Origin: Gallionella sp.
GTDB taxonomy: Bacteria > Pseudomonadota > Gammaproteobacteria > Burkholderiales > Gallionellaceae
Assembly: GCA_003153155.1 (NCBI GenBank)
Contig: PLWV01000019.1
Coordinates: 1,137 to 65,136, forward strand
Direction: 5' to 3'
DNA length: 64,000 nucleotides
Part shown: piece by piece, positions 1 through 12,986 of the stretch
Position numbering within the stretch: position 1 is the first letter of the stretch
Layout: each line of letters begins with the position of its first letter
The notes under the pieces: model-generated
What the model was told of the DNA's origin: nothing
Seen by the model: the letters and a program-made list of their open reading frames with translations, nothing else
The model's database searches: none
Translations under genes and position numbers: made by a program

Positions 1-1006
1 TGGCCCAGGCGCCATGCACGAAACTCTGGTCTATCTTGAGTTCATCGAAGGGAATGTCGCGCAACTGGGCCAGCGAAGAATGCCCGGTGCCAAAATCGTC
101 TATGGATAATTCGAATCGCTTCAGGCGCAGCCGGGTCAGGATCTCGAGCGGTGCGCGCGCGTCCAGCATCAACCGGCTTTCCGTCACCTCCAGCACCACG
201 CTATGCGGCGACACACCCGCTGCGGCTGCCTGTGCGGCGACAAAATCCGCGAAATCCAGCGCAGCCAGATTATCCATGGATACATTGATCGCCACCTGCA
301 GCATCAGTCCCGCTTCCTCCCATCGCCTGATCTGGGCCAATGCACCGTCCAGCACCGCGCGGGTCAGGTCGTCGATCAGGCCGTGCGCCTCTGCCACGCC
401 GATGAACTGATCTGGAAACACCATCCCATCCTGCGGGTGCCGCCAGCGCACCAGGGATTCTGCGCCCGCCACTACACCCGTGGCGACCACCACTTTGGGC
501 TGGTAGTAATTGACCAGCTCGCCATTGGCGATGGCGGCGCGCACCTTGTCCGCAGCATAAATTTTTTTCGCCGCAATTTTTTTCGCCGCACCGCAGGGGC
601 CGTCTTGCGCCAGTGCCGTCCACTTTTCCAGCAACGACGCCAGCCCTTCCGGCGTGGCTGGCTTGTGCAGGTGGCCCAGCATCGGAATCTTATGCGCCCG
701 CACCAGCTTCTCGACAGACTGCTGCATGCGTTCATCTTCTCCGCTCACCAGAATGAGAGCACCAGCATAATGGTGCTCGACCAGGCGGCGCGCGAATTCG
801 ACCCCATCCATCTCCGGCATGTTGAGATCCAGCAAAATCAAATCCGGCGAGCGGTCTGGGTCATCAACCTGCTCCAGCGCGGCGCGTCCGCTGTCGAAGG
901 TGCTGACCGAGGTATAGCCGAGGTTCGCCAAAATGCGGGCCAGCAGCTTGAGCATGAATGGCTCGTCGTCGAGCACCAGAATCCTGATGGCGAATTTTTT
1001 CGGCAT
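1..1006 (-). CDS. REC-EAL response regulator / c-di-GMP phosphodiesterase (3' end runs off the window)
   Basis: Hand translation (absent from the ORF track): MPKKFAIRILVLDDEPFML...LILLDLNMPEMDG...YYQPKV...GAESLVRW...LEVTES...IDDFGTGHSSL...ELKIDQSFV. The EAL motif is the ESL variant. Confidence 0.9.
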   Translation of the reverse strand, partial: MPKKFAIRILVLDDEPFMLKLLARILANLGYTSVSTFDSGRAALEQVDDPDRSPDLILLDLNMPEMDGVEFARRLVEHHYAGALILVSGEDERMQQSVEKLVRAHKIPMLGHLHKPATPEGLASLLEKWTALAQDGPCGAAKKIAAKKIYAADKVRAAIANGELVNYYQPKVVVATGVVAGAESLVRWRHPQDGMVFPDQFIGVAEAHGLIDDLTRAVLDGALAQIRRWEEAGLMLQVAINVSMDNLAALDFADFVAAQAAAAGVSPHSVVLEVTESRLMLDARAPLEILTRLRLKRFELSIDDFGTGHSSLAQLRDIPFDELKIDQSFVHGAWA

Positions 1007-1051: not shown

Positions 1052-3739
1052 CTATAACGAATCCAGATAGTTGTTTACGGCGGACATTTCCGCCTCGAAG
1101 CGGGATAGCAGCGCGGTCAATGCTTGGATCTGTCCAGCCTTGCCCGCCTGTTCCATTTCGGCGCACAACTCTCCCAGCGCCAGCGCGCCCACCGAACGCG
1201 CAGAGGATTTGAGTTTATGCGCCGCCGCCGCCACTGCCGCTGTATTGCATGCGGCGCAGGCAGTGCGCAATTGCGCCGCAATTTTGTCTGCGCTGATGCG
1301 GAAGTCATGCAAAAACTCGGCTAAGGTCGCCTCGTCATCACCCACTAATTTCTTGAGCACGTTTACATCTACCGGCGAGGATGACGCGGCGAGAGCAGAT
1401 TTTAATTGGATGGGCGCGGACTCGGCGGCAATGCGCAGCCATTTTTCCAGCATCTCTTTCAGTTTGACCAGTTGCGCCGGCTTGCTTAAATAGCCATCCA
1501 TACCGACCGCAAGGCAGTGTTCGGCCTCGCCCTTAAGGACATTGGCGGTGAAGGCGATGATAGGCGTGCGTGGTTTGCCGGTTTTGCCGGTATCGCTTTC
1601 ACTGGCTCGAATGATCGCAGTCAATTCATATCCGTCCATCTCCGGCATGTGCAGGTCGGTGATCAGCATGCCGTAATCGCCGCTCTGCCACAATTCCAAT
1701 GCCTCGCGGCCATTGTTGATGATGTCGGCAGTATGACCGAGCAACTTGAGTTGTTGCAGGATGACTTTCTGGTTGATCTCGTTGTCTTCGGCAACCAGGA
1801 TCAGGCTGCCCCGCCGGAGCGCATCCTCGCGCGACAGTGGCACGGGCGCCAACCTGGCGCCACTGGACAGGTCGATCAGGACTTGTTTTTTGATCCGTCC
1901 GGCGGCAATCGCCACCGCTTCCAGAAATACCTTGCGGTGCATGGCCTCAGCGTCCAGAGTAACCTGATCGGCGGCTTCGACCCGGCACTGCCGGCGTTTG
2001 CCGCGCCCGATGACAACAAAACGAACATCCGACCCGGTTCGGGCACAGGCGGCGGTGCGCAATGCATCCAGCAGCGATGGAGCACCCGTAGTATCTATGA
2101 CCACAACGCACAATCCGGGCGGCCAGCTGGAGATCCATTGCCCGGCAGCGTCCCTGTCCATTACCCGCTCGACTATCGCACCGTCATGCGCGAGATAGAC
2201 GGCCATGTCGTCTGCCAGACTATCCCCACCGCCCACCACCAGACAGCACAATCCGGCGATCGGCGAGGGCTGATCATCGGCTTCCGGATTTTGCGCCGGC
2301 AGTTCGAATGACAGGCGCACGCTGAACATCGAGCCTATGCCCGGTTCGCTCTGCACCGATATTTCGCCGTCCATTATGTTGGCCAACTGGCTGCTGATGA
2401 CCAGCCCCAGCCCGGTGCCGCCGAAATTCCGGGTGGTGGACGAGTCGGCCTGGGAAAAGGGAGTGAACAGCTTGGCTTGGGTCGCTGCATCAATACCGAT
2501 GCCGTTGTCGGACACGCTGAATACCACCATCACCTTCCCCGGTGAGCCCCTGTTCTCTGGTGCGACCCGGATCGCCCGTGTGACGCGCATCGACACACGC
2601 GCTTGCCTGCCCTGCCCGGTGGAAAACTTGATGGCGTTGTTCGCCAGGTTGACCAGTATCTGGCGCAGCCGCCCGGGGTCACCCATAAGAAGTGCGGGCA
2701 GGGTCGGATCGGTAAACAGGGTCAGTTCCACCGCTTTTTTCCGGGCCATGTGATCCAGTGCATCGCACGCCCCTTCCACCACGTCGGCGATGTTCATGGG
2801 CAGGCTTTCAACCTGAAGCTTGCCGGCCTCGATCTTGGAAAAATCGAGAATATCGTCAATCACGGCAAGCAGGGCGTATGCCGAATCGTGGATGATGTTG
2901 GACATCTCCATCTGCTGGGGATTGAGGCTGCTCTGTTGCAGCACATCGACCATGCCGATCACGCCGTTCATCGGGGTGCGTATCTCGTGGCTCATGGCGG
3001 CAAGGAAGGCCGACTTGGCTTGGTTAGCCTGTTCAGCATCGCGCCGGGCTTGCTCCAGATCGGAGGTGCGTGATGCCACTTTGTTTTCCAGCTCTTCGTT
3101 GAGTTGGCGTAGCGACTCCTCCGCCAGCTTCTGGTCTTCGACCACACTAAGCAGCGCCCGGCGTGATTGATTGGCAGCGGCCAGCAACTCCCGCGCCGAC
3201 TTTTCGGAAGCGACGATGGCCTCGCTGCGCTTTTGCTCAGTCAGATCGGTTGCCACCAGGCAGAAAGCATCAGGCATCCCGGTGATGAGCAGGTTGCTCA
3301 CCGAAAGCTGGACCGGCACCCGTGTGCCATCACTGGCGGTAAGTTCAAGCTGCTCACGGTGTTTTTCAGCTGCGCCTTTGCTCAACAGAGATTGAAGAAT
3401 CTGCCGACTGTCGGGCGCAATCCAGATGTGAATTGAAGCGCCGATCACATTTTCGAGCGGCATCTTGAGCATCTCGGCAAAGCGCCGGTTGGCATACAAA
3501 ATCACACCCTCCGCCGTCATGGTCAGCGCGCCTTCGTTCATATTCTCGATTAATGTACGGTAGGATTGATCGGCACCCTTGAGCGTAAAAAGCTGCGAAC
3601 CGACCTCGCCCGAGACGAACATCGCGTCCACCTCGCCACTGCGAATGGCGCGCAAAGTCTCTTTGGCTTCGTCCAGTTGTGCGCGCAGGTCTTCCAGTTC
3701 TAGCTGGCATTGCTCCTGGGTTGTTGGATTATTTTGCAT
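1052..3739 (-). CDS. Hybrid sensor histidine kinase (PAS-HisKA-HATPase-degenerate REC-REC-Hpt)
   Basis: H-box [11 protein letters not shown]; N/G boxes [22 protein letters not shown]; [14 protein letters not shown]; Hpt AHKLKSSA. Start overlaps the kaiB stop (TAATG). Confidence 0.93.
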
Positions 3740-4050
3740 TACGCGTTCTTTCGCAAATCCAGCCCAACCAGCACGCGCTCGGTATTCGACATATCCCCGA
3801 TGATGCGGCGCAACGGGTTCGGAAGTTTTCTGATCAGCGTTGGCACGGCGATGATCTGCTCGTCCTGCGCCAGTTGTGGCTGCTGGTAGAGATCAATTAC
3901 CTTCAGCTCATAGCGCCCTTGCAGATTTTCCTCGCAGATTCTTTTAATATTGGTGATCGCGTTAGCAGATTTCGGCGACGTTCCGGCAACGTACAGCCGC
4001 AGGATATAGCGATTCGATTCTGCTTTGGGCTGGGCGGGGTTCGTTTTCAT
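3739..4050 (-). CDS. kaiB: KaiB family protein (103 aa)
   Basis: [12 protein letters not shown]...[36 protein letters not shown]. The ATG at 4050 overlaps the kaiC TGA; the longer ORF-track call is a spurious 5' extension. Confidence 0.93.
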
Positions 4051-5837
4051 TTCGATCCCCTTTTTTGTTTGTTCGCTGTCACATCCGCATTGCGGCTCAG
4101 CCCCATGTCCACACGTCCTTGCACTAATTGCGCTTTCTCCGCTTTTTCCTGCCCGATGATTTTCACCGACGCGATCTCTTCCACCGCAAACTCGGCGCGC
4201 AACACGGCGATTTGTGCTTCCAGCGTCGTGCGCTTGCGTTCCAGCTCGATCCGCCGCAACTCCACTTCCTGATCGCGGATCATCAACGCGGCTTTCTCTT
4301 GCGCCTCTTGCGTCAATCGCGCCGAACCGGTCAGCACGCCACTCACACCGACGTACACATCGCGCAATTCCACGCCGTGATCGGTCAGCAGGAACTCGCG
4401 AATCTGGTTCGAGTGCGCCATGCCGCGCGATTTCATGATGTACAAGCCGCGATTGCGCTCGCCACCAATTTCGATGTCCCTCACCAACAGCCATGTGTCG
4501 ATCAGGGACGAAATGGCAACTTCGCTTTGTTCGAGCACTCCGCTGCTTGATGTTAAGCTGGTGAACAAGCCGGTGATCTGATTCGTTTTCAAAAAATCTA
4601 TCAGCCTTGTCAACATCGATTTGACTTCGATCTCATTGCCCCCGATGACAAAACTGTTCAGCGGATCCAGAATCACCACCTGCGGTTTGAACGTGTTGAT
4701 CAATTTGTGCTTCGTGATCAGATGCGTTTCCAAGCCCGCAGACGAGGGGCGGTCCGCATAAATCTGCAACAGCCCTTTTGTCACCCACACTTCCAGGTCA
4801 ATCCCGATGGAACGCATGTTGCGCATGATCTGGCTGGGAGATTCCTCGAAGGCGAAATAGATTACGCGCTCGCCGCGACGGCAGGCGGCCTCGGCAAAGT
4901 GTGCCGCGAGACTGCTCTTGCCGGTACCCGCCGTGCCGGAGATAAGCACGCTGCTGCCCCGGAAAAAGCCCTTTCCGCCCAGCATCGCGTCGAGGCGCGG
5001 GATGCCGGTAGAAGCGCGTTCGCTGGAGGCAGTGTGCTGCAAGCCCATCGACGTGACCGGCAGCACCGAAATGCCATCTGCGTCGATCAGAAACGGATAC
5101 TCGTTGGTGCCGTGGGTCGAGCCGCGATACTTGGCCACGCGCAACCGCCGCGAGGAGGTCTGCTCGCTCACGCGATGGTCGAGCACGATGACGCAGTCGG
5201 AAACGTATTCTTCCAACCCCTGGCGCGTCAGCATCCCATCACCGCGTTCGCCGGTGATGATGGCCGTCACGCCCCTATCCTTCAGCCAGCGAAACAGGCG
5301 GCGCAGTTCGGCGCGCAGGATGGCCGGGTTGGGCAAGCCGGAGAACAGCGTCTCGATGGTATCCAGCACCACGCGCTTCGCGCCGATGGAATCAATGGCT
5401 GACCCCAAGCGGATGAACAACCCTTCCAGATCGTATTCGCCGCTTTCTTCGATTTCGCTGCGCTCGATATACACAAAATCCACCACGATCTTTTTGTGCG
5501 CGATCAGGTCTTTCAAGTCGAAACCGAGCGAAGCGACGTTCTGGGTCAGGTCTTTGGCGGTCTCTTCGAAAGCCATAAACACGCCCGGCTCGTTGAACTC
5601 TGTCGCGCCCCGCACCAGAAACTCCATCGCGAGCAGCGTCTTGCCGCAGCCCGCGCCGCCGCACACCAGCGTCGGCCTGCCTTTGGGCAATCCGCCGCCG
5701 GTGATTTCGTCCAGCCCCTGAATGCCGGTCGGCGATTTGGGTAGTTGCGGCCTCGATTTTTGTTCTGGCCTGGATTTTTGCTTTGTCCTGGATTTTTGTT
5801 CTGACTGGGATTTTTGTTTTGGCTTGGGCTTGGTCAT
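4047..5837 (-). CDS. kaiC: KaiC family double-domain ATPase/kinase
   Basis: Two RecA-like domains ([11 protein letters not shown] and [11 protein letters not shown]), ISSLIDTW at the phosphosite position, [15 protein letters not shown]-terminal coiled-coil tail. Confidence 0.95.
5755..5825 (-). repeat. 18-bp tandem repeat (~4 units) encoding QKSxxE hexapeptides at the KaiC N-terminus
   Basis: Protein reads [24 protein letters not shown]; the + strand shows recurring GATTTTTG every 18 nt. Confidence 0.8.
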
Positions 5838-5840
5838 GAT

Positions 5841-8543
5841 TTATTCCTCTATTGGGTCTTGAGATTCAGCACTGGGGTAGCGCGGATGTTTGCCGGTTTT
5901 GCCCAGCAAATCGTTCACTTCATGCTTGAGGTCAAGGATGCGCTCCTCTCGACCCGAGGTTACCTCGTGCCAGCGGCGCAGTTCCTCGATCTGTTCGGCC
6001 TGCTTGACTTCGGTCTGCTTGCGCTCGGTGATGTCTTCGCCGATGCTTGCCGTTCCGATCACATCGCCGTCTCCCGAGCGCAGCACCGAATGGTTCCAGC
6101 GTATGAGCCGACGCTCGCCAGAACGGGTAAGTATCTCGCTTTCGTAATGCCTTGCTTCTGGTTTATTGAGGATGAGTTCCGCGAAAACCTTTTTTTTCTG
6201 TTTGGCAATTTCGGGCGGCACGAAAAGCTCTACCCAGTTTCGCCCGATAATTTCCTCGTATTTCCAACCAGTCAGGCGGAGCAGAAACTCGTTGCAGTAG
6301 GTTATCCGTTCTTCGCTGTCACGCATTACTGAAACCAGTTCCACATTTTCCAGCATGTCGCTAAAGCGACGCTCGCTTTCGCGTAGCTCCAGATTGATGC
6401 GGGATATTTCCTGTACAGCCATCTTTATGTCATTAATATCGGTGCAGGTGCCAAACCATTTGAGGATATTGCCGTCGGCATCTAGCAGAGGCACACCACG
6501 CACCAGCCACCAGCGGTAAATTCCATCTGCGCGACGCAAGCGGCTTTCGATCGAATAAATGCCGCGCCCCGTCACTGCTAGCTGCCAAGCATCCCATGTA
6601 CGCTGCTGGTCGTCCGGATGGAATGGCTTGTTCCACCCGTGACCCAGGCTTTCCTCAAGGGTGAGTCCCGTGTAATCCATCCATTGCTGGTTGAAATAAA
6701 TGTTCCAGCCATCCGCGCGGGTGATCCAGACAATTTGCGGCATGGCTTCGGCCAGCGTGCGGAATTCTGCCTCGCTCTTGCGCAAATCTTCCTCCGCCAG
6801 CTTGCGCTCGGTAATATCGCGCGCGATGCCCAGCACGCCGACCAGCTTGCCTCCGGGATCGTACATCGGCGTTTTGATAGCTTCCAGCAGGGCACGATGA
6901 CCATCGTCGGCGAAGACGACCCATGCTTCGGGTTCGATGCTGGGTTTGTTTGCTGCCATTGCTATGCGGTCGTGCTCGCGGAAGAAGTCCGCCAGTTCCT
7001 TGTCCACAAAATCGTAATCGGTTTTGCCGACGATGTCCGCTTCCTTGGCACCATAGAAACGCTCGAACATCGGGTTGCAACTCACGTAAACGCCGTTCTC
7101 GTCTTTCAGCCAAATCATGTCAGGTATGGTTCCCACCAAGGTGCGCAAACGGGTTTCTTTCGCGGCCAAGGCCAGCTCCATTTGCATGCGCTCGTTCACG
7201 GCAAAGTTGAGTCTGAATATCACGGCCAGAAAAATCATCAGGCTGGTAAACGTGCCGATGAAGATGATGAGGTATGAGAACCGGGACATACTTTCCGATT
7301 CCTGTTTCAATTGCTGGATGAGTTGGTGATGCTCGCTTTTAATCTGATCGTATGTGATACGGAAGTTGTCCAGCAAGCCTTCTCCATACCTGATCATGTT
7401 GTTGCGGATAGCGTCGGTCATGCTGGTTTGCCTGGCATCAATGACTTGCTGAAACCACTGGAGTTGCGCCTTGGCCTGAACTTCGATCCGGGCGAACTGC
7501 TGTTGTTGATGCGGGTTGCTGGCGGTGAGTTTGCGCAGTGCGTCCAGATTCACGTTGCTGTTGGCTTTGGCCTCAAGATAGTGGGTCTTGAACTGTTCGT
7601 CGCCGGTGATGACGTAGCCACGAGTGTAGGTTTGGGCATCGATAATTTCGATCAGAATATTTTCAATATAGTCCTGCGCTTCTTCGCTATACGCTATCTT
7701 GCGGTTCGTTTCGCCCAGCCAGAATTGGCTCCGGTTGGTGTTGAAGCCGATGAGCACCAGCACTGCCATGCCGCAGGCAAACGCCGCCGTGGTATTCCTG
7801 CTGAGCGACCACTGCAAGACATCCGGCTGCCAGCTAATTGCAATGACGGCCATGCCCAGCATCGCGAACAATAGGGACGTGTGCATCGCCATGATGGTGA
7901 GGCCAAACCAGCCATAGGCGCCTAGACCCGGTGTGGGATAGGACAGCATCGCCGCCAGCGCGAGGGTCGTCACCAGCAGGCCGAGGCTCACCGACGCAAG
8001 CGCAGTCCAGCGGGTCTGGTGCGAACTGCCGGTGATCCACAATGCCGCAGCCAGCAAGACGAAACTCAAGGCCGTCTCCGGTGCCATCCGCCCCGGATAC
8101 GATGTGCCCACCGTGCCGTTCGGCTCGATGAACAACCACTGGTCTATGCCGGGATTCCAACCGAAGACATATTCACCCAGCGACAGCAGGCCGATCAGGC
8201 CAACCAGCAACCCGCAAAGACGGGCGAGGCGAAATAACAAGGTTGAGAATTGCACCCGCAGGGGGTAGGCCGTGCGGTTCCCGTAGCCGAAGCTACGACC
8301 GCTACGCTCCGGATTGAACGTTGCGGGTGGGCGGGCAGTCAACAACAGCGCGATCCCCGTCAGGATGAAACAGACGGCGGTGTTCGCCTTCATGGCAACC
8401 CAGCCCGGCAAGACGCTCTTCAGTGTGACAATATCGAATGTCCAGCCGACCAGTACCATGGCGCCCACAACCACCGACAGAAGCGCAGCCCATGATGCGA
8501 GTTTCCGCGCCAGCACTGCAGGGTGGGTGTGGTCAGTTCTCAT
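5841..8543 (-). CDS. Membrane sensor: multi-TM, CHASE3-like, three PAS/PAC domains, no catalytic output domain
   Basis: Several TM helices; DAQTYTRGYVITGD..F..HY (CHASE3-like); three PAS/PAC units ending RDITERK, TDINDIK, EDITERK; ends ~45 aa after the last PAS. Confidence 0.85.
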   Translation of the reverse strand: MRTDHTHPAVLARKLASWAALLSVVVGAMVLVGWTFDIVTLKSVLPGWVAMKANTAVCFILTGIALLLTARPPATFNPERSGRSFGYGNRTAYPLRVQFSTLLFRLARLCGLLVGLIGLLSLGEYVFGWNPGIDQWLFIEPNGTVGTSYPGRMAPETALSFVLLAAALWITGSSHQTRWTALASVSLGLLVTTLALAAMLSYPTPGLGAYGWFGLTIMAMHTSLLFAMLGMAVIAISWQPDVLQWSLSRNTTAAFACGMAVLVLIGFNTNRSQFWLGETNRKIAYSEEAQDYIENILIEIIDAQTYTRGYVITGDEQFKTHYLEAKANSNVNLDALRKLTASNPHQQQQFARIEVQAKAQLQWFQQVIDARQTSMTDAIRNNMIRYGEGLLDNFRITYDQIKSEHHQLIQQLKQESESMSRFSYLIIFIGTFTSLMIFLAVIFRLNFAVNERMQMELALAAKETRLRTLVGTIPDMIWLKDENGVYVSCNPMFERFYGAKEADIVGKTDYDFVDKELADFFREHDRIAMAANKPSIEPEAWVVFADDGHRALLEAIKTPMYDPGGKLVGVLGIARDITERKLAEEDLRKSEAEFRTLAEAMPQIVWITRADGWNIYFNQQWMDYTGLTLEESLGHGWNKPFHPDDQQRTWDAWQLAVTGRGIYSIESRLRRADGIYRWWLVRGVPLLDADGNILKWFGTCTDINDIKMAVQEISRINLELRESERRFSDMLENVELVSVMRDSEERITYCNEFLLRLTGWKYEEIIGRNWVELFVPPEIAKQKKKVFAELILNKPEARHYESEILTRSGERRLIRWNHSVLRSGDGDVIGTASIGEDITERKQTEVKQAEQIEELRRWHEVTSGREERILDLKHEVNDLLGKTGKHPRYPSAESQDPIEE

Positions 8544-8859: not shown

Positions 8860-8985
8860 CACTAGAGAACACAGAGTTCACAGAGAAAAACAATTGGTTG
8901 CCGTTAATAGCAATCCCATCCATCTGGTGAATATGAAAAATATGTGGAACTCGCTTCATCTCTGTGTTCTCTGTGATCTCTGTGG
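8860..8985. repeat. Inverted pair of 9-bp tandem repeats (CACAGAG.. / ..CTCTGTG)
   Basis: cactagagaa-cacagagtt-cacagagaa at 8860-8888 against tctctgtgt-tctctgtga-tctctgtgg at 8960-8985. Confidence 0.75.
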
Positions 8986-10343
8986 CTTGAATTAAGGTTT
9001 TTAGCCTTATGTGTTGCCGTCGCAGGCTGCGGCAAACTTGCCAGCAGGGACGTGACTATCTCAACCAGCCGCCCGGCAGTCAGCCCATCCGCTTCCGGCA
9101 GGGTTTCGTCCGGCGGATGCTTGCGCAACAGCAGCAGCACATTTCCGAAATAGCGCTGCGCCTCCCGGTAGCATCCCTGCGACTGATGCAGTTTCCCCAG
9201 TGCAAAATGAGCAAGCACGAACCGGGGTTCGAGATAGAGCGCGCGTATCAATGACTGAATGGCGTTATCGTGCAGCCCTTGTTCCTGCATAATTGTGGCG
9301 TTCAGATAATGGTGCACCGGGTTCAGCTTGTCGGCGGCGATCGCTTTTTCGCACCACTCCAGCGCCTCGCTGAGCCTGCCCTGATTGGCGCAATGACGCG
9401 CCATGAAGGCTGGTGCTTCATGTCTATCCTGGTTCGCTGCATCCGCCTTCTCGTTTTCAGATGGTAATTGGTACGACGGCGTATCTGCCATCTTCCGGTA
9501 TAACACCGCTTCCGGAAACTCGACCGGCGTGAACAAGGAAAGCAAGGTGGTCGAGGCTTCTGTCGGACTGACGATCAACCACCCGCCGTCAACCAGCGCG
9601 CGGTAAAAATTGCTGGTGACCTGTTTTGCCCGTTGCGCGGTGAAATACATCAGGACATTGCGGCAAAGAATCACGTCCATCGCGCTGGTGTTGTTAACCA
9701 GCGAGGGATAAATATCCTCGGCAAAATTGAGGTAGGAAAACGTGACCATCTTCCTGATACGAGGATGTATCTCGAAGCGTCCATCTGCCCTCTTGGTGAA
9801 ATACCGCTCGCGGAGCCAGACTGGCGCATCGCGAAACGACCATTCGCCGTACACGCCCTGTACCGCCTTGCGCAGAAATTTCGGGTTAAAGTCCGTCGCC
9901 AAAATGGTGACGTTCCAATCCTTGAGATCGGGAATGAGTCTGTCGAGCAGTATCGCGATGCTATAGGCTTCCTCGCCCGTGCTACAGCCCGCACTCCAGA
10001 TACGCAAACGCCGCTCATTCTGGCGGCGTGATTGCAACAGCATAGGGAGGATATGCTCCTCGAAAATTCCTAAACTCTGTTTCTCCCGGAAAAAATAGGT
10101 TTCCCCCACGCTCAGGTGGCTGGCGAGAACCTCGTTCATGTGCCGTGTCAGCGGGGCTGACAACAGCCAGCGTGCGCATGATTCCCGATCCGAAAAATTG
10201 AAATCCGGCGCTGCCGCCGCTATTCCCCGCTCGAGATCGCTCCAGCGTTCTTGCGGGAAATACAGACCCGTCTGCGCGGCGACAAATTCGCTCAGCTGTG
10301 ACAACAATGAAGAGGGAAATGTGGGGCGCATGTTTTGCCTCAA
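8904..10343 (-). CDS. cheR: CheR-type methyltransferase with C-terminal TPRs (WspC-like)
   Basis: VGETYFFRE, RIWSAGCSTGEEAYSIA, ATD, DVILCRNVLMYF, followed by TPR repeats. Confidence 0.92.
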   Translation of the reverse strand: MRQNMRPTFPSSLLSQLSEFVAAQTGLYFPQERWSDLERGIAAAAPDFNFSDRESCARWLLSAPLTRHMNEVLASHLSVGETYFFREKQSLGIFEEHILPMLLQSRRQNERRLRIWSAGCSTGEEAYSIAILLDRLIPDLKDWNVTILATDFNPKFLRKAVQGVYGEWSFRDAPVWLRERYFTKRADGRFEIHPRIRKMVTFSYLNFAEDIYPSLVNNTSAMDVILCRNVLMYFTAQRAKQVTSNFYRALVDGGWLIVSPTEASTTLLSLFTPVEFPEAVLYRKMADTPSYQLPSENEKADAANQDRHEAPAFMARHCANQGRLSEALEWCEKAIAADKLNPVHHYLNATIMQEQGLHDNAIQSLIRALYLEPRFVLAHFALGKLHQSQGCYREAQRYFGNVLLLLRKHPPDETLPEADGLTAGRLVEIVTSLLASLPQPATATHKAKNLNSSHRDHREHRDEASSTYFSYSPDGWDCY

Positions 10344-10828
10344 GAGGTTTCGAACGTCCGATTTTCCGGTGCCCGGTTTTCCAGCGCCTGGTCCAGAGAA
10401 CTTTCTTCTTCCAGCGAAAGAAATTTGTCCAGGTCGTGGATGAGGATCAAGCCATCTGTTAGTTTTACCACCCCTTTCACATACTCAACCTTGGGAAGGA
10501 TATTTTCTGTCGCGATCAGATTCTGCGCGGAACATGCGATGACATCCAGCACCGCGTCCGCCACCAGCGCAACAGGCCGTCGTGCCGTGTGCGCGACAAC
10601 CAGTTGGTCGGTCAGTGCAATCTCACGATCCGGCAGGCAAAAACGCCGACGCACATTGATAACCGGGATGACTTGCCCTTGGAAATTGACCACGCCAAGG
10701 ATGATGTCCGGTGCCTTAGGCAACGGGGTGATAGCCACCATGCGCACCACCCGATCCGCCGCAGGCAACGGCAGGGCGTAGCGTTGATCGTCCAGGGTAA
10801 AAATAACTAGGAAATCTGGCTTCTTCAT
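10340..10828 (-). CDS. cheW: CheW-like coupling protein
   Basis: FTLDDQRYALPL..DRVV..ITPLPKAP..ILGVVNFQGQVIPVINVR. Confidence 0.92.
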   Translation of the reverse strand: MKKPDFLVIFTLDDQRYALPLPAADRVVRMVAITPLPKAPDIILGVVNFQGQVIPVINVRRRFCLPDREIALTDQLVVAHTARRPVALVADAVLDVIACSAQNLIATENILPKVEYVKGVVKLTDGLILIHDLDKFLSLEEESSLDQALENRAPENRTFETS

Positions 10829-11041: not shown

Positions 11042-11596
11042 CTACTCGCCCACCTCGATCAAGGATGCAAAAATCAGGTGACCATCAACCCGCATCGGTG
11101 GTCCGGCACGGTGTGCTTTGAAACCGGCATTGCGTAGCAATCGCTCGATGCCGAGCGGAGAAACGGTAATCAAGCGCTTCGCCCCATGTTTCGATGCGCA
11201 ATCTATGGCTCCCTGCAGTAAATCTATCGCAATATCCGATGACATCTGCCGTAACGGAGATTGATTGGGCGAGTTGAAATCGAGCGCAGCAAAGCGGGAA
11301 AGCTCCCAAATTTCAGGAGAGTTCGGCGGTATTGCACCGTTCAACAACTGGGGAAAAACTTCGGAGAGGAGATAAGGGTGTGTGGTCGGTAACAGCCGGG
11401 CGCAACCGCATACCTCGCCCTCGTCATCGCGCGCGACCACATAGACTGTGTCCGGCCGGTCGAATTGGTCCTGTTCCAGACCATCCGGCGCATGCAAATC
11501 CCAGCCCAGGTTTTCGACAAAGACCTTGTGCCGATAGGCTGCTACCTGTCGGTAAGTGCCCAGTAAACTGTCCGCAGTGCCTGAAATAATATTCAT
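11042..11596 (-). CDS. Acyl-homoserine-lactone synthase (LuxI family)
   Basis: YRHKVFVENLGW, EQDQFD, GCARLLPT..PYLL..VFP, WELSRF. Start placed at MNIISG (11596) rather than 11659. Confidence 0.93.
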   Translation of the reverse strand: MNIISGTADSLLGTYRQVAAYRHKVFVENLGWDLHAPDGLEQDQFDRPDTVYVVARDDEGEVCGCARLLPTTHPYLLSEVFPQLLNGAIPPNSPEIWELSRFAALDFNSPNQSPLRQMSSDIAIDLLQGAIDCASKHGAKRLITVSPLGIERLLRNAGFKAHRAGPPMRVDGHLIFASLIEVGE

Positions 11597-11663
11597 ACTC
11601 AACCCCCCAGAAAACCATAAAAACCGACGGGTTAATTTGAGCTTGCCAAACCGGTTCAAACAA

Positions 11664-12271: not shown

Positions 12272-12986
12272 ATGAAAGCTTGGCAAGAAGAGCAAGTCCA
12301 GTTGCTGTTGAGTTGCGATTCTGCGGCGGATTCGTTTCAGCGTGTCACGGTGTTGGCGCGGGAGCTTGGTTTCGACTATTGCGCCTACGGCATTCGCATG
12401 CCGCTACCCATCTCCGCGCCCAGAACGGAGATGTTCAATAATTATCCGACTGATTGGCAAACATGCTATCAAGCACAGAGCTATCTTGTGGTTGACCCGA
12501 CCGTTGCGCAGGGTAGCCGTTCGACATTGCCCTTTGTTTGGTCTGATGAATTGTTTGCCTCGGCCCGTGATTTGTGGGAAGACGCCAGAGCTTACGGGTT
12601 GGAATACGGATGGGTGCAATCTTGCCGGGATGCGCAGGGCATCAGCGGCATGCTGACATTGGCGCGCGCTCAGGAAGATTTGTCAGCCAGCGAGTTGCGC
12701 GCCAAGACCCCGGAGATGAGTTGGTTGGCGCAAACGGCGCACTTCGGCATGGCGCGTTGCCTTGACGGCCAAGCTGCTGCCGGAAGCCGAGGTGACGCTT
12801 TCGAGCCGGGAGGTTGAAGTGCTGCGCTGGACGGCAGAAGGCAAGACCTCAAGTGAGGTGGCGGATATTTTGAGAATCGCTGAACGCACCGTCAATTTCC
12901 ACATCAATAACGCCATGGCTAAATTGAAAGCCAACAACAAGACTGCTGCGGCCATTCGAGCAGCGGTGTTGGGGCTGCTGTACTGA
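12272..12986 (+). pseudogene. LuxR-family AHL receptor split by a +1 frameshift at ~12760 (pseudogene or sequencing error)
   Basis: AHL-binding domain (NYPTDW..Y...DP...W...G.EYG) in one frame, HTH (LSSREVEVLRWTAEGKTS.E...ERTVNFH) in the next. Span 715 nt = 238 codons + 1. Confidence 0.85.

What the first reader, a model, noticed from the sequence alone, without database searches (positions are those of the whole stretch)
5841..8543. Output-less CHASE3/PAS receptor ending in a His-less pseudo-DHp helix directly before kaiC
Seen: after the last PAS the protein ends EQIEELRRWHEVTSGREERILDLKHEVNDLL. This aligns in register with kinase H-box helices (EL..F.Y..SHDL) but has SG instead of SH, and there is no HATPase, GGDEF or MCP domain. 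The stop is 3 bp from the kaiC start and the frame is clean, so it does not look like a broken kinase. Inference: a receptor that signals by protein contact to KaiC/KaiB, i.e. a KaiA-independent input arm.
Basis: partly seen in the sequence, partly recalled or inferred. Interest (0 to 1): 0.65.

Follow-up and report, generated by a model that had tools for sequence, protein, structure and literature searches.

The report
Kinase-less sensor with docking tail before kaiC
This is an intact membrane sensor with no enzyme part, and its conserved end helix belongs to a huge unnamed family that almost always pairs with a matching helix in a nearby histidine kinase; here a KaiC-KaiB timer sits between the two genes, so the tail is probably a general sensor-to-kinase plug rather than a KaiC-specific device.

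Summary
Window 5841-8543 (-) encodes a clean 900-aa protein: 7 TM segments, CHASE3, another TM, three PAS domains and a 52-aa tail. It has no output domain, and its stop lies 3 nt before kaiC.

The "His-less pseudo-DHp" reading does not hold:
- AlphaFold2 gives one continuous 44-residue helix, not a hairpin.
- Profile comparison with HisKA gives 0.5% probability.
- The "S" of "SG" is Leu in 80% of relatives.

The tail is an unannotated module found in 13,865 protein clusters and is almost always C-terminal. In 64 of 67 related loci with at least 2 kb of downstream sequence, a second unannotated helix (RLL..A..SR.ALLS..EDQK.AE, "helix B") lies downstream on the same strand, usually in a histidine kinase.

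This genome has exactly one tail and exactly one helix B. Helix B is in the hybrid kinase after kaiB.

kaiC follows the tail gene in only 14 of 80 loci. Wherever enough sequence exists (11 of 11), kaiC-kaiB lies between the tail gene and the helix-B gene.

Best reading: the receptor plugs into the kinase, and KaiCB gates the same kinase. Direct KaiC contact is not excluded.

The parts
5841..8543 (-). Receptor gene, 900 aa: 7-TM region, CHASE3, TM, 3 PAS domains, tail. No output domain.
   Evidence: ORF list; Pfam and NCBIfam; the identical protein is in the public collection as P0001.
7734..8543 (-). N-terminal membrane region, residues 1-270, with about 7 predicted TM segments and no Pfam family.
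   Evidence: Hydropathy scan; no Pfam hit at E<=10. Similar N-termini occur in the kinases downstream of the tail gene in L044, L054, L060 and L072.
7302..7703 (-). CHASE3 domain, residues 281-414, predicted extracytoplasmic, followed by TM8 at residues 425-443.
   Evidence: PF05227, E=7e-23; hydropathy.
6009..7151 (-). Three cytoplasmic PAS domains, residues 465-845. The last one (about 715-848, 'SGERRLIRWN') is 41-74% identical to PAS domains in seven other genomes of the order; two of those genomes (G084, G148) carry it near kaiC.
   Evidence: Pfam; the genome search with the last PAS; homologues after kaiB.
5844..5999 (-). Tail module ('helix A'), residues 849-900: L855, R856, R857, W858, G864, R865, E866, R868, L872, K873, E875, N877, G884, R888, Y889. 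The predicted helix spans residues 839-882, followed by a flexible ..PRYPSAE.. end.
   Evidence: Conservation table; AlphaFold2; family size. No Pfam or PDB match.
5835..5849 (-). Receptor stop, 3-nt spacer and kaiC start, with kaiC's GAGGA ribosome-binding site inside receptor codons 899-900.
   Evidence: Sequence read.
4047..5837 (-). kaiC, 596 aa, Rhodobacter-type with a C-terminal coiled-coil extension.
   Evidence: PF06745 and NF006799. Best PDB match is 8DBA, aligned over residues 32-582.
3739..4065 (-). kaiB, 108 aa. It overlaps the kaiC end by 19 nt and the kinase start by 1 nt.
   Evidence: PF07689, E=3e-29; coordinates.
1052..3739 (-). Hybrid histidine kinase, 895 aa: N-terminal PAS, helix B, S-helix, HisKA, HATPase_c, REC, Hpt.
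   Evidence: Pfam.
3086..3196 (-). 'Helix B' (socket candidate), kinase residues 182-218: [37 protein letters not shown]. It is the only copy in the genome.
   Evidence: HMM built from 37 instances, searched on the whole genome: one hit, 53 bits; the genome search. No Pfam or PDB match.
2..1006 (-). REC-EAL protein (c-di-GMP phosphodiesterase type), cut by the window end. Likely terminal output of the phosphorelay.
   Evidence: Pfam PF00072 and PF00563.

Best explanation
The 900-aa protein is a stand-alone membrane sensor. Its only output is a C-terminal docking helix ('helix A', residues 849-900).

Inferred mechanism:
1. The sensor dimer senses an extracytoplasmic cue through the 7-TM/CHASE3 part and cytoplasmic cues through three PAS domains.
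2. The change passes into a long helix that extends from the last PAS.
3. That helix binds non-covalently to a matching conserved helix ('helix B', residues 182-218) in the stalk of the hybrid histidine kinase encoded three genes downstream. Helix B lies directly N-terminal to the kinase's S-helix and DHp.
4. Binding changes kinase autophosphorylation, and so the HisKA-REC-Hpt relay to the REC-EAL c-di-GMP phosphodiesterase.
5. The KaiA-less KaiC-KaiB timer, encoded between the two partners and translationally coupled to both, acts on the same kinase, probably through the kinase's N-terminal PAS. That PAS recurs at the start of the post-KaiB protein in most of the Kai loci examined.

The kinase would therefore integrate an environmental input (the receptor) with a time or energy-state input (KaiBC).

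Shown here: domain content, family size, terminal position, helix prediction, and A-B co-occurrence and gene order. Inferred: physical A-B binding, its effect on the kinase, and the route by which KaiBC acts.
For: 1. The tail is a real module. A 52-position profile finds 13,865 cluster representatives at E<=1e-3 and 4,472 at E<=1e-10, C-terminal in nearly all of the best 150.
2. 77 of 80 genomic loci stop within 45-81 residues of the tail start. The PAS in front of the tail varies (about 20-30% identity even in the closest relative), so the tail is the constant part.
3. In 48 non-Kai loci, the same-strand ORF directly downstream is a HisKA+HATPase kinase in 34 cases, often with overlapping stop and start.
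4. Helix B lies downstream on the same strand in 66 of 80 loci, in 64 of 67 with at least 2 kb downstream, and in 57 of 58 with at least 4.5 kb. It is upstream of the tail in only one locus, which also has downstream copies.
5. The window's own 2.75-Mb genome has exactly one helix A and one helix B, both in this operon.
6. In 201 genomes of the order, helix B occurs in 6 and strong helix A in 4. All 4 carry both on one contig and strand, 0.65-2.65 kb apart. My own hypergeometric estimate is about 2e-7, uncorrected for phylogeny.
7. The 18 other KaiC loci of the order, none with a full tail upstream, have no helix B.
8. All 11 Kai-adjacent loci with enough sequence have helix B in the protein after kaiB.
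9. Natural in-frame fusions exist: A, linker, B, HisKA, HATPase (L013 at 1705 aa, L048 at 835 aa).
10. AlphaFold2 of the L013 fusion gives a 44-residue helix A, a 30-residue disordered linker, then one 102-residue helix made of B, the S-helix and DHp helix 1.
11. The tail has hydrophobic residues at a/d and also at e/g heptad positions, plus invariant polar residues. That fits a surface that binds more than its own dimer partner (inference).
Against: - There is no experimental or co-folding evidence of A-B binding. AlphaFold2 was run only on monomers, and the pTM of 0.47 for the fusion says nothing about A-B packing.
- Co-occurrence could reflect a shared third partner.
- The 80 loci were the best matches to this window's tail, so they are biased towards close relatives, and many come from metagenome bins.
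- In this operon the gene touching the tail gene is kaiC, not the kinase. His874 is enriched in Kai-adjacent tails (12 of 14 against 10 of 66; uncorrected for phylogeny or ascertainment). That could hint at Kai-specific adaptation.
- A second tail subtype ('type B') sits upstream of GGDEF-EAL genes that have no helix B. Helix B is therefore not the only possible partner.
Confidence: 0.55

Rival explanations
1. First reader's model. The tail contacts KaiC (or KaiB) directly, so the receptor resets or gates the KaiA-less timer as an input arm. The kinase only reads the timer's output.
For: - The 3-nt spacing, with kaiC's ribosome-binding site inside the receptor's last codons.
- kaiC lies directly downstream of a tail gene in 14 of 80 loci, from bins labelled as several phyla, and with KaiC lineages only about 40% identical (L022, L029, L077).
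- His874 is enriched in Kai-adjacent tails.
- The receptor's last PAS is closely related to PAS domains of post-KaiB proteins.
- There is a precedent for PAS domains binding KaiB: KidA (PMC9478674).
- KaiA is absent from the genome.
Against: - 66 of 80 tail loci have no kai gene, and the family has 13,865 clusters.
- Only the window's own genome, of 16 KaiC-bearing genomes in the order, has a full tail upstream of kaiC.
- A same-family genome (G084) keeps kaiC-kaiB after losing the receptor gene, of which only a 3' remnant is left.
- The tail's invariant residues are the same in Kai and non-Kai loci.
- Rhodobacter-type KaiC autophosphorylates without any activator (PMC10076222).
Confidence: 0.17
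2. The tail is only a homodimerising coiled-coil cap that stabilises PAS dimers. The protein acts through its PAS domains, or by sequestering a ligand. Its position next to kinases reflects ordinary clustering of signalling genes.
For: - AlphaFold2 shows a plain long helix continuing from the PAS core.
- The best structural matches are short LOV/PAS proteins with Jalpha helices and the Jalpha linker of YF1.
- There is a weak sequence echo of the PpSB1-LOV Jalpha helix (PDB 2yon, E=0.08).
Against: - A mere dimeriser would not need near-invariant polar residues (R, E, R, K, E, N, Y) across phyla while the adjoining PAS domains vary freely.
- It would not explain the 96% co-occurrence, in fixed order and on the same strand, with helix B.
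- It would not explain the 1:1 count in this genome.
Confidence: 0.1
3. Recently truncated or decaying histidine kinase: the output domains were lost and the tail is what remains of a linker.
For: Two of 80 relatives continue in frame into HisKA-HATPase (L013, L048). In other Pseudomonadota families the tail can be internal, followed by a PocR domain.
Against: - The terminal form is the rule (77 of 80 loci, and nearly all of the best 150 representatives) and is conserved across phyla.
- The frame is clean, and the sequence after the helix (PRYPSAE) is itself conserved.
- The gene is translationally coupled to the next one.
Confidence: 0.02

Closest known systems
Rhodobacter sphaeroides / Rhodopseudomonas palustris kaiC-kaiB-PAS/HK operons (KaiA-less hourglass; PDB 8DBA; PMC10076222, PMC4794148)
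   Same: KaiC aligns with 8DBA over residues 32-582, including the C-terminal coiled-coil extension. kaiB follows, then a PAS histidine kinase. No KaiA is found in the genome.
   Different: The papers read here describe no membrane receptor gene in front of kaiC. The kinase here also carries helix B, which the 18 other KaiC loci of the order lack. The operon continues into Hpt and REC-EAL.
Short (effector-less) LOV/PAS proteins with a Jalpha helix (PpSB1-LOV, PpSB2-LOV, MrLOVe), and PmSB-LOV acting on the adjacently encoded PmlR2 (PMC9758184)
   Same: A PAS core followed by a long C-terminal helix and no effector domain, signalling in trans to a neighbouring gene product. These are the top structural matches of the model (9vf7, 7a6p). 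There is a weak sequence echo of the PpSB1 Jalpha helix.
   Different: The tail is longer and has its own near-invariant motif plus a PRYPSAE end. It closes multi-domain membrane sensors. The partner appears to be a kinase stalk helix, not a LitR-type regulator. LOV photochemistry was not tested.
Signalling helix (S-helix) of Anantharaman, Balaji and Aravind 2006 (PMC1592074)
   Same: A helix of about 40-45 residues following a sensor domain, with conserved polar residues at core positions of the central heptads.
   Different: The S-helix almost always lies between two domains, whereas this helix is terminal. hhalign of the tail against the S-helices of the neighbouring kinases gives 0.5% probability.
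HisKA (DHp) domain, helix 1 with the H-box
   Same: The tail follows a PAS domain at roughly the distance where a kinase's stalk and H-box would lie. MAFFT can be drawn into aligning it there.
   Different: It is a single helix, not a hairpin. It has no conserved His, no profile similarity and no ATPase domain.
KidA, a multi-PAS protein that binds KaiB (PMC9478674)
   Same: A multi-PAS protein linked to a Kai system.
   Different: KidA acts through PAS-KaiB contact in a KaiABC oscillator. No homology to it or binding like it was tested here.

Membership tests
HisKA / DHp (genuine or pseudo) | Two-helix hairpin that dimerises into a four-helix bundle | tested here: not met
   AlphaFold2 gives one continuous helix, residues 839-882, then a flexible end. 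The same is seen in the L013 fusion. Both are monomer models only.
HisKA / DHp (genuine or pseudo) | Profile similarity to HisKA, including the H-box | tested here: not met
   No Pfam hit at E<=10. hhalign against 37 HisKA segments gives 0.5% probability.
HisKA / DHp (genuine or pseudo) | Conserved phospho-acceptor His, or a fixed substitute at that position | tested here: not met
   The position before G864 is L in 80% and S in 7% of relatives. H874 is H in 27% and R in 58%.
Unnamed tail-bearing output-less sensors ('helix A' family) | C-terminal module with the motif L.ELRRW...GRE.R.L.LK.EVN.LL..G.PPRY | tested here: met
   The window protein scores 92.9 bits against the family profile at residues 849-900.
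Unnamed tail-bearing output-less sensors ('helix A' family) | No catalytic or DNA-binding output domain | tested here: met
   Pfam and NCBIfam.
Unnamed tail-bearing output-less sensors ('helix A' family) | A helix-B-bearing signalling protein downstream on the same strand | tested here: met
   Helix B lies at window 3086-3196, 2.65 kb downstream, with kaiC-kaiB in between. The pattern holds in 64 of 67 loci.
Unnamed tail-bearing output-less sensors ('helix A' family) | Physical binding of helix A to helix B | not testable with these tools
   No multimer prediction or experiment was available.
KaiA or KaiA-like activator | KaiA C-terminal domain (PF07688) | tested here: not met
   No Pfam KaiA hit in the receptor or anywhere in the genome. 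The control genome, Synechococcus elongatus, was positive.
KaiA-less KaiBC hourglass (Rhodobacter type) | Double-domain KaiC with a C-terminal extension of about 50 residues, kaiB adjacent, a PAS kinase downstream, and no KaiA | tested here: met
   Timer behaviour itself was not tested.
S-helix | Lies between two signalling domains; profile similarity | tested here: not met
   The helix is terminal. hhalign gives 0.5% probability.

The most novel reading that the evidence does not exclude
The receptor tail, KaiC-KaiB and the helix-B kinase form one switchable assembly. The timer, encoded exactly between plug and socket, decides when the environmental sensor may engage the kinase, or the sensor decides when the hourglass is read. 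This would be a dedicated, receptor-driven input and gating arm for KaiA-less Kai timers, built on a general and undescribed plug-and-socket system for wiring separate sensors to kinases. The enrichment of His874 in Kai-adjacent tails would then mark a Kai-specific contact.
Probability: 0.15. Interest if true: 0.85.

Novelty: new variant of a known kind. Interest (0 to 1): 0.6.

Why it matters
How KaiA-less KaiBC timers receive environmental input is poorly known beyond the ATP/ADP ratio (PMC10076222), and how they hand their state to two-component relays is also little studied. This operon offers a concrete, testable wiring: membrane receptor, timer, hybrid kinase and c-di-GMP phosphodiesterase.

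More broadly, the tail (13,865 clusters) and its partner helix have no Pfam or PDB match, and nothing describing them turned up in the limited paper searches run here. If they bind, they form a general way of attaching separate sensor proteins to kinases. That would change how thousands of 'PAS domain S-box proteins' without outputs are annotated, and it would offer a modular connector for synthetic signalling.

Tried and rejected
- **Pseudo-DHp.** Rejected after hhalign and AlphaFold2. The 70% probability came only from the shared DITERK cap of the PAS domain.
- **S-helix homology or helix A = helix B homology.** hhalign gives 0.4-0.5%.
- **HWE/HisKA_2 H-box resemblance of 'LKHEVN'.** Considered from memory. 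There is no Pfam hit and the His is not conserved.
- **CheR/CheW as tail partners.** Apart from the window itself, CheW and CheR lie upstream only in L001, and a CheR-like gene is nearby in L052 and L074.
- **A Kai-specific last PAS as the constant element.** The PAS in front of the tail differs among Kai-adjacent loci. The window's own last PAS does recur near Kai genes elsewhere, so this is kept only as a side observation.
- **First paired alignment for AlphaFold2 (A7).** It misaligned the tails onto the S-helix and H-box region. It was rebuilt as A8. The resulting monomer model cannot show A-B packing.
- **First genome-contig scan with alignment A1.** It failed because no stretch was conserved enough. 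It was repeated with A2.
- **PDB sequence searches for the tail and for helix B.** Nothing significant.
Full report
**What is there**

On the minus strand the window carries a tightly packed gene row:
- cheW (10340-10828) and cheR-TPR (8904-10343), then a 361-nt gap.
- The 900-aa receptor (5841-8543).
- kaiC (4047-5837) and kaiB (3739-4065).
- A hybrid kinase with PAS, HisKA, HATPase, REC and Hpt domains (1052-3739).
- A REC-EAL protein (2-1006, cut by the window end).

The genes are closely spaced. The receptor stop is 3 nt from the kaiC start, and kaiC's GAGGA site lies in the receptor's last codons. kaiC overlaps kaiB by 19 nt, and kaiB overlaps the kinase by 1 nt.

The receptor has about seven predicted TM segments with no Pfam family. 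These are followed by CHASE3 (281-414), an eighth TM, three PAS domains (465-845) and a 52-residue tail (849-900). It has no kinase, cyclase, MCP or DNA-binding domain. The descriptive part of the finding is therefore correct.

**The tail is not a pseudo-DHp**

- Pfam gives nothing for the tail at E<=10.
- A profile of 80 tails against a profile of 37 HisKA segments from neighbouring kinases gives 0.5% probability. The only weak alignment falls on DHp helix 2. A 70% value in a first run came from the shared DITERK cap of the PAS domain.
- AlphaFold2, run with 25 aligned homologues (mean pLDDT 91), predicts one uninterrupted helix from residue 839 to 882, running straight through 'SG', followed by a flexible end.
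- Across 80 relatives the residue before the near-invariant Gly is Leu in 80% and Ser in 7%. His874 is His in 27% and Arg in 58%.
- The best structural neighbours are PAS/LOV domains with long C-terminal helices: MrLOVe, PpSB2-LOV and the Jalpha linker of YF1.
- The tail also shows no profile similarity to the S-helices of the neighbouring kinases.

**The tail is a very large, unannotated, terminal module**

- A 52-position profile finds 13,865 cluster representatives at E<=1e-3 and 4,472 at E<=1e-10 among 1.84 billion. The match is at the extreme C-terminus in nearly all of the best 150.
- In species-representative genomes, 252 stretches were confirmed and 80 loci were fetched, from bins labelled Gallionellaceae, other Pseudomonadota, Chloroflexota, Acidobacteriota, Verrucomicrobiota and others, and from Holophaga foetida DSM 6591.
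- 77 of the 80 stop within 45-81 residues of the tail start.
- The PAS domain in front of the tail is not conserved, even in the closest relative. The tail is the constant element.
- Near-invariant positions are L855, R856/R857, W858, G864, R865, E866, R868, L872, K873, E875, N877, G884, R888 and Y889.
- Hydrophobic residues occupy a/d and also e/g heptad positions, while several core positions are polar. I read this as a surface made to bind something besides its own dimer partner (inference).

**What the tail goes with**

kaiC lies directly downstream in 14 of the 80 loci. Of 48 other adjacent same-strand downstream ORFs, 34 are HisKA+HATPase kinases, 40 carry PAS and 14 carry REC. Stop and start often overlap.

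These downstream proteins share a second unannotated motif, RLL..A..SR.ALLS..EDQK.AE..L ('helix B'). It has no Pfam or PDB match. An HMM of it gives these counts:
- It hits 66 of the 80 loci, in every one of them downstream of the tail on the same strand at 165-4,476 nt; one locus (L067) has an additional copy upstream in the tail protein itself.
- It hits 64 of 67 loci with at least 2 kb downstream, and 57 of 58 with at least 4.5 kb.
- In all 11 Kai-adjacent loci with enough sequence, helix B is in the protein after kaiB.
- The window's own genome has exactly one tail and exactly one helix B. Helix B is at kinase residues 182-218, window 3086-3196.

In an even sample of 201 genomes of the order, helix B occurs in 6 genomes and a strong tail in 4. 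All 4 have both on one contig and strand, 0.65-2.65 kb apart. My hypergeometric estimate is about 2e-7, uncorrected for phylogeny.

The 18 other KaiC loci of the order have no full tail upstream, and none has helix B.

Two natural fusions (L013, L048) carry tail, linker, helix B, HisKA and HATPase in one frame. AlphaFold2 of the L013 fusion gives helix A, a disordered 30-residue linker, then a single 102-residue helix made of helix B, the S-helix and DHp helix 1. Helix B is thus part of the kinase stalk, immediately before the catalytic core.

**Relation to Kai**

The tail is not Kai-specific. Most tail loci lack kai genes, and most KaiC loci lack a tail gene.

In a same-family genome (G084), only the last ~25 codons of a tail gene survive in front of kaiC, after a (CTGCCCA)n repeat. 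Its post-KaiB protein is a single PAS...GAF-GGDEF-EAL polypeptide without helix B.

The order tail gene - kaiC - kaiB - helix-B gene nevertheless recurs. It occurs with proteobacterial KaiCs (75-85% identical to this one) and with Chloroflexota KaiCs (about 40% identical).

A second tail subtype (ELERFHRLSVGRELQMIELKKQIN...PPY.LAFL) closes PAS proteins that sit directly upstream of GGDEF-EAL genes. kaiC-kaiB precedes such a gene in 5 of 21 loci, many of which are too short upstream to judge.

The window receptor's last PAS is 55-60% identical to the last PAS of those proteins. It is 74% and 68% identical to two PAS domains of the G084 post-KaiB protein.

The kinase's N-terminal PAS recurs at the start of most post-KaiB proteins examined.

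KaiC itself is the Rhodobacter type with the C-terminal coiled-coil extension (best PDB match 8DBA). This type autophosphorylates without KaiA (PMC10076222). KaiA is absent from the genome.

**Reading**

The receptor most likely plugs its tail into helix B of the hybrid kinase. KaiC-KaiB, made from the same message between the two, most likely modulates the same kinase. The relay ends at the REC-EAL enzyme.

It gains a little from the enrichment of His874 in Kai-adjacent tails (12 of 14 against 10 of 66). That count is confounded by relatedness and by how the loci were chosen.

**Earlier notes of this scan**

A note on another genome (e1-5258564), seen, called the tail a general module. After I had found helix B myself, further notes turned out to describe the same tail-plus-kinase-helix pairing in at least eight other windows. 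These are AI notes, not independent evidence. The claims I rely on were recomputed here.

**Limits**

- Everything on function is inference from sequence, context and monomer models.
- The 80 loci are the best matches to this tail and include many metagenome bins.
- No binding or coevolution test was possible.

Noticed in passing
L100 8640-8815 (genome G084, same family): kaiC is preceded only by the last ~25 codons of a tail gene (EVNVLQAQTGKHPHTSVQNLESR*), directly after a (CTGCCCA)n tandem repeat. The receptor gene seems to have been lost there while kaiC-kaiB was kept.
   Followed up: partly
L100 10926-14999 (G084): The post-KaiB protein is one long polypeptide (N-terminal PAS, several PAS, GAF, GGDEF, EAL). 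It holds two copies of the 'SGERRLIRWN' PAS that is also the window receptor's last PAS (74% and 68% identity). The same parts are wired in cis there and split across genes here.
   Followed up: partly
window 3173-3739 (-), kinase residues 1-189: The kinase's N-terminal coiled coil plus PAS ('GEVDAMFV') recurs at the N-terminus of the post-KaiB protein in most Kai loci examined (for example 59% identity in G084 and 60% in L104). This holds whether the output is a kinase or a tail. It is a candidate Kai-binding domain.
   Followed up: partly
L101, L103, L104, L113, L115: A second tail subtype (ELERFHRLSVGRELQMIELKKQIN..PPY.LAFL) closes PAS proteins placed between kaiB and a GGDEF-EAL gene. There is no helix B in those loci, which suggests another partner class.
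   Followed up: partly
window 8904-10828 (-): cheW and a TPR-bearing cheR sit directly upstream of the receptor gene, with no cheA or MCP nearby in the window. Only the closest relative (L001) shares this arrangement.
   Followed up: partly
window 11042-11659 (-) and 12272-12986 (+): By eye, these ORFs look like an autoinducer-synthase (LuxI-type) gene and a LuxR-type regulator. The regulator appears split over two frames (12272-12817 and 12762-12986). No domain search was run on them.
   Followed up: no
L123-L144 (other Pseudomonadota families): In 14 of 30 sampled loci the tail is internal. It is followed after 40-60 residues by a PocR sensory domain, or by an 'AAMSLAEDAEQAR' helix, within proteins of 1,800-2,900 aa.
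   Followed up: partly
window 5844-5999 (-), residue H874: His in LK[H]EVN is present in 12 of 14 Kai-adjacent tails against 10 of 66 others (Fisher 7e-7). The count is not corrected for phylogeny or for how the loci were chosen.
   Followed up: partly
window 5745-5837 (-), KaiC residues 1-31: KaiC has a Lys/Pro/Ser/Gln-rich N-terminal extension of about 30 residues. It is absent from the Rhodobacter structure and from the Chloroflexota KaiCs, and is shared by the close proteobacterial relatives.
   Followed up: no
L013 3316-8430: A 1,705-aa protein joins a multi-PAS tail protein in frame to the last strand of the kinase's PAS and then to the rest of a kinase. The post-junction stretch compared (about 180 residues) is 74% identical to the window's kinase. 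It looks as if kaiC, kaiB and most of the kinase's PAS had been deleted.
   Followed up: partly
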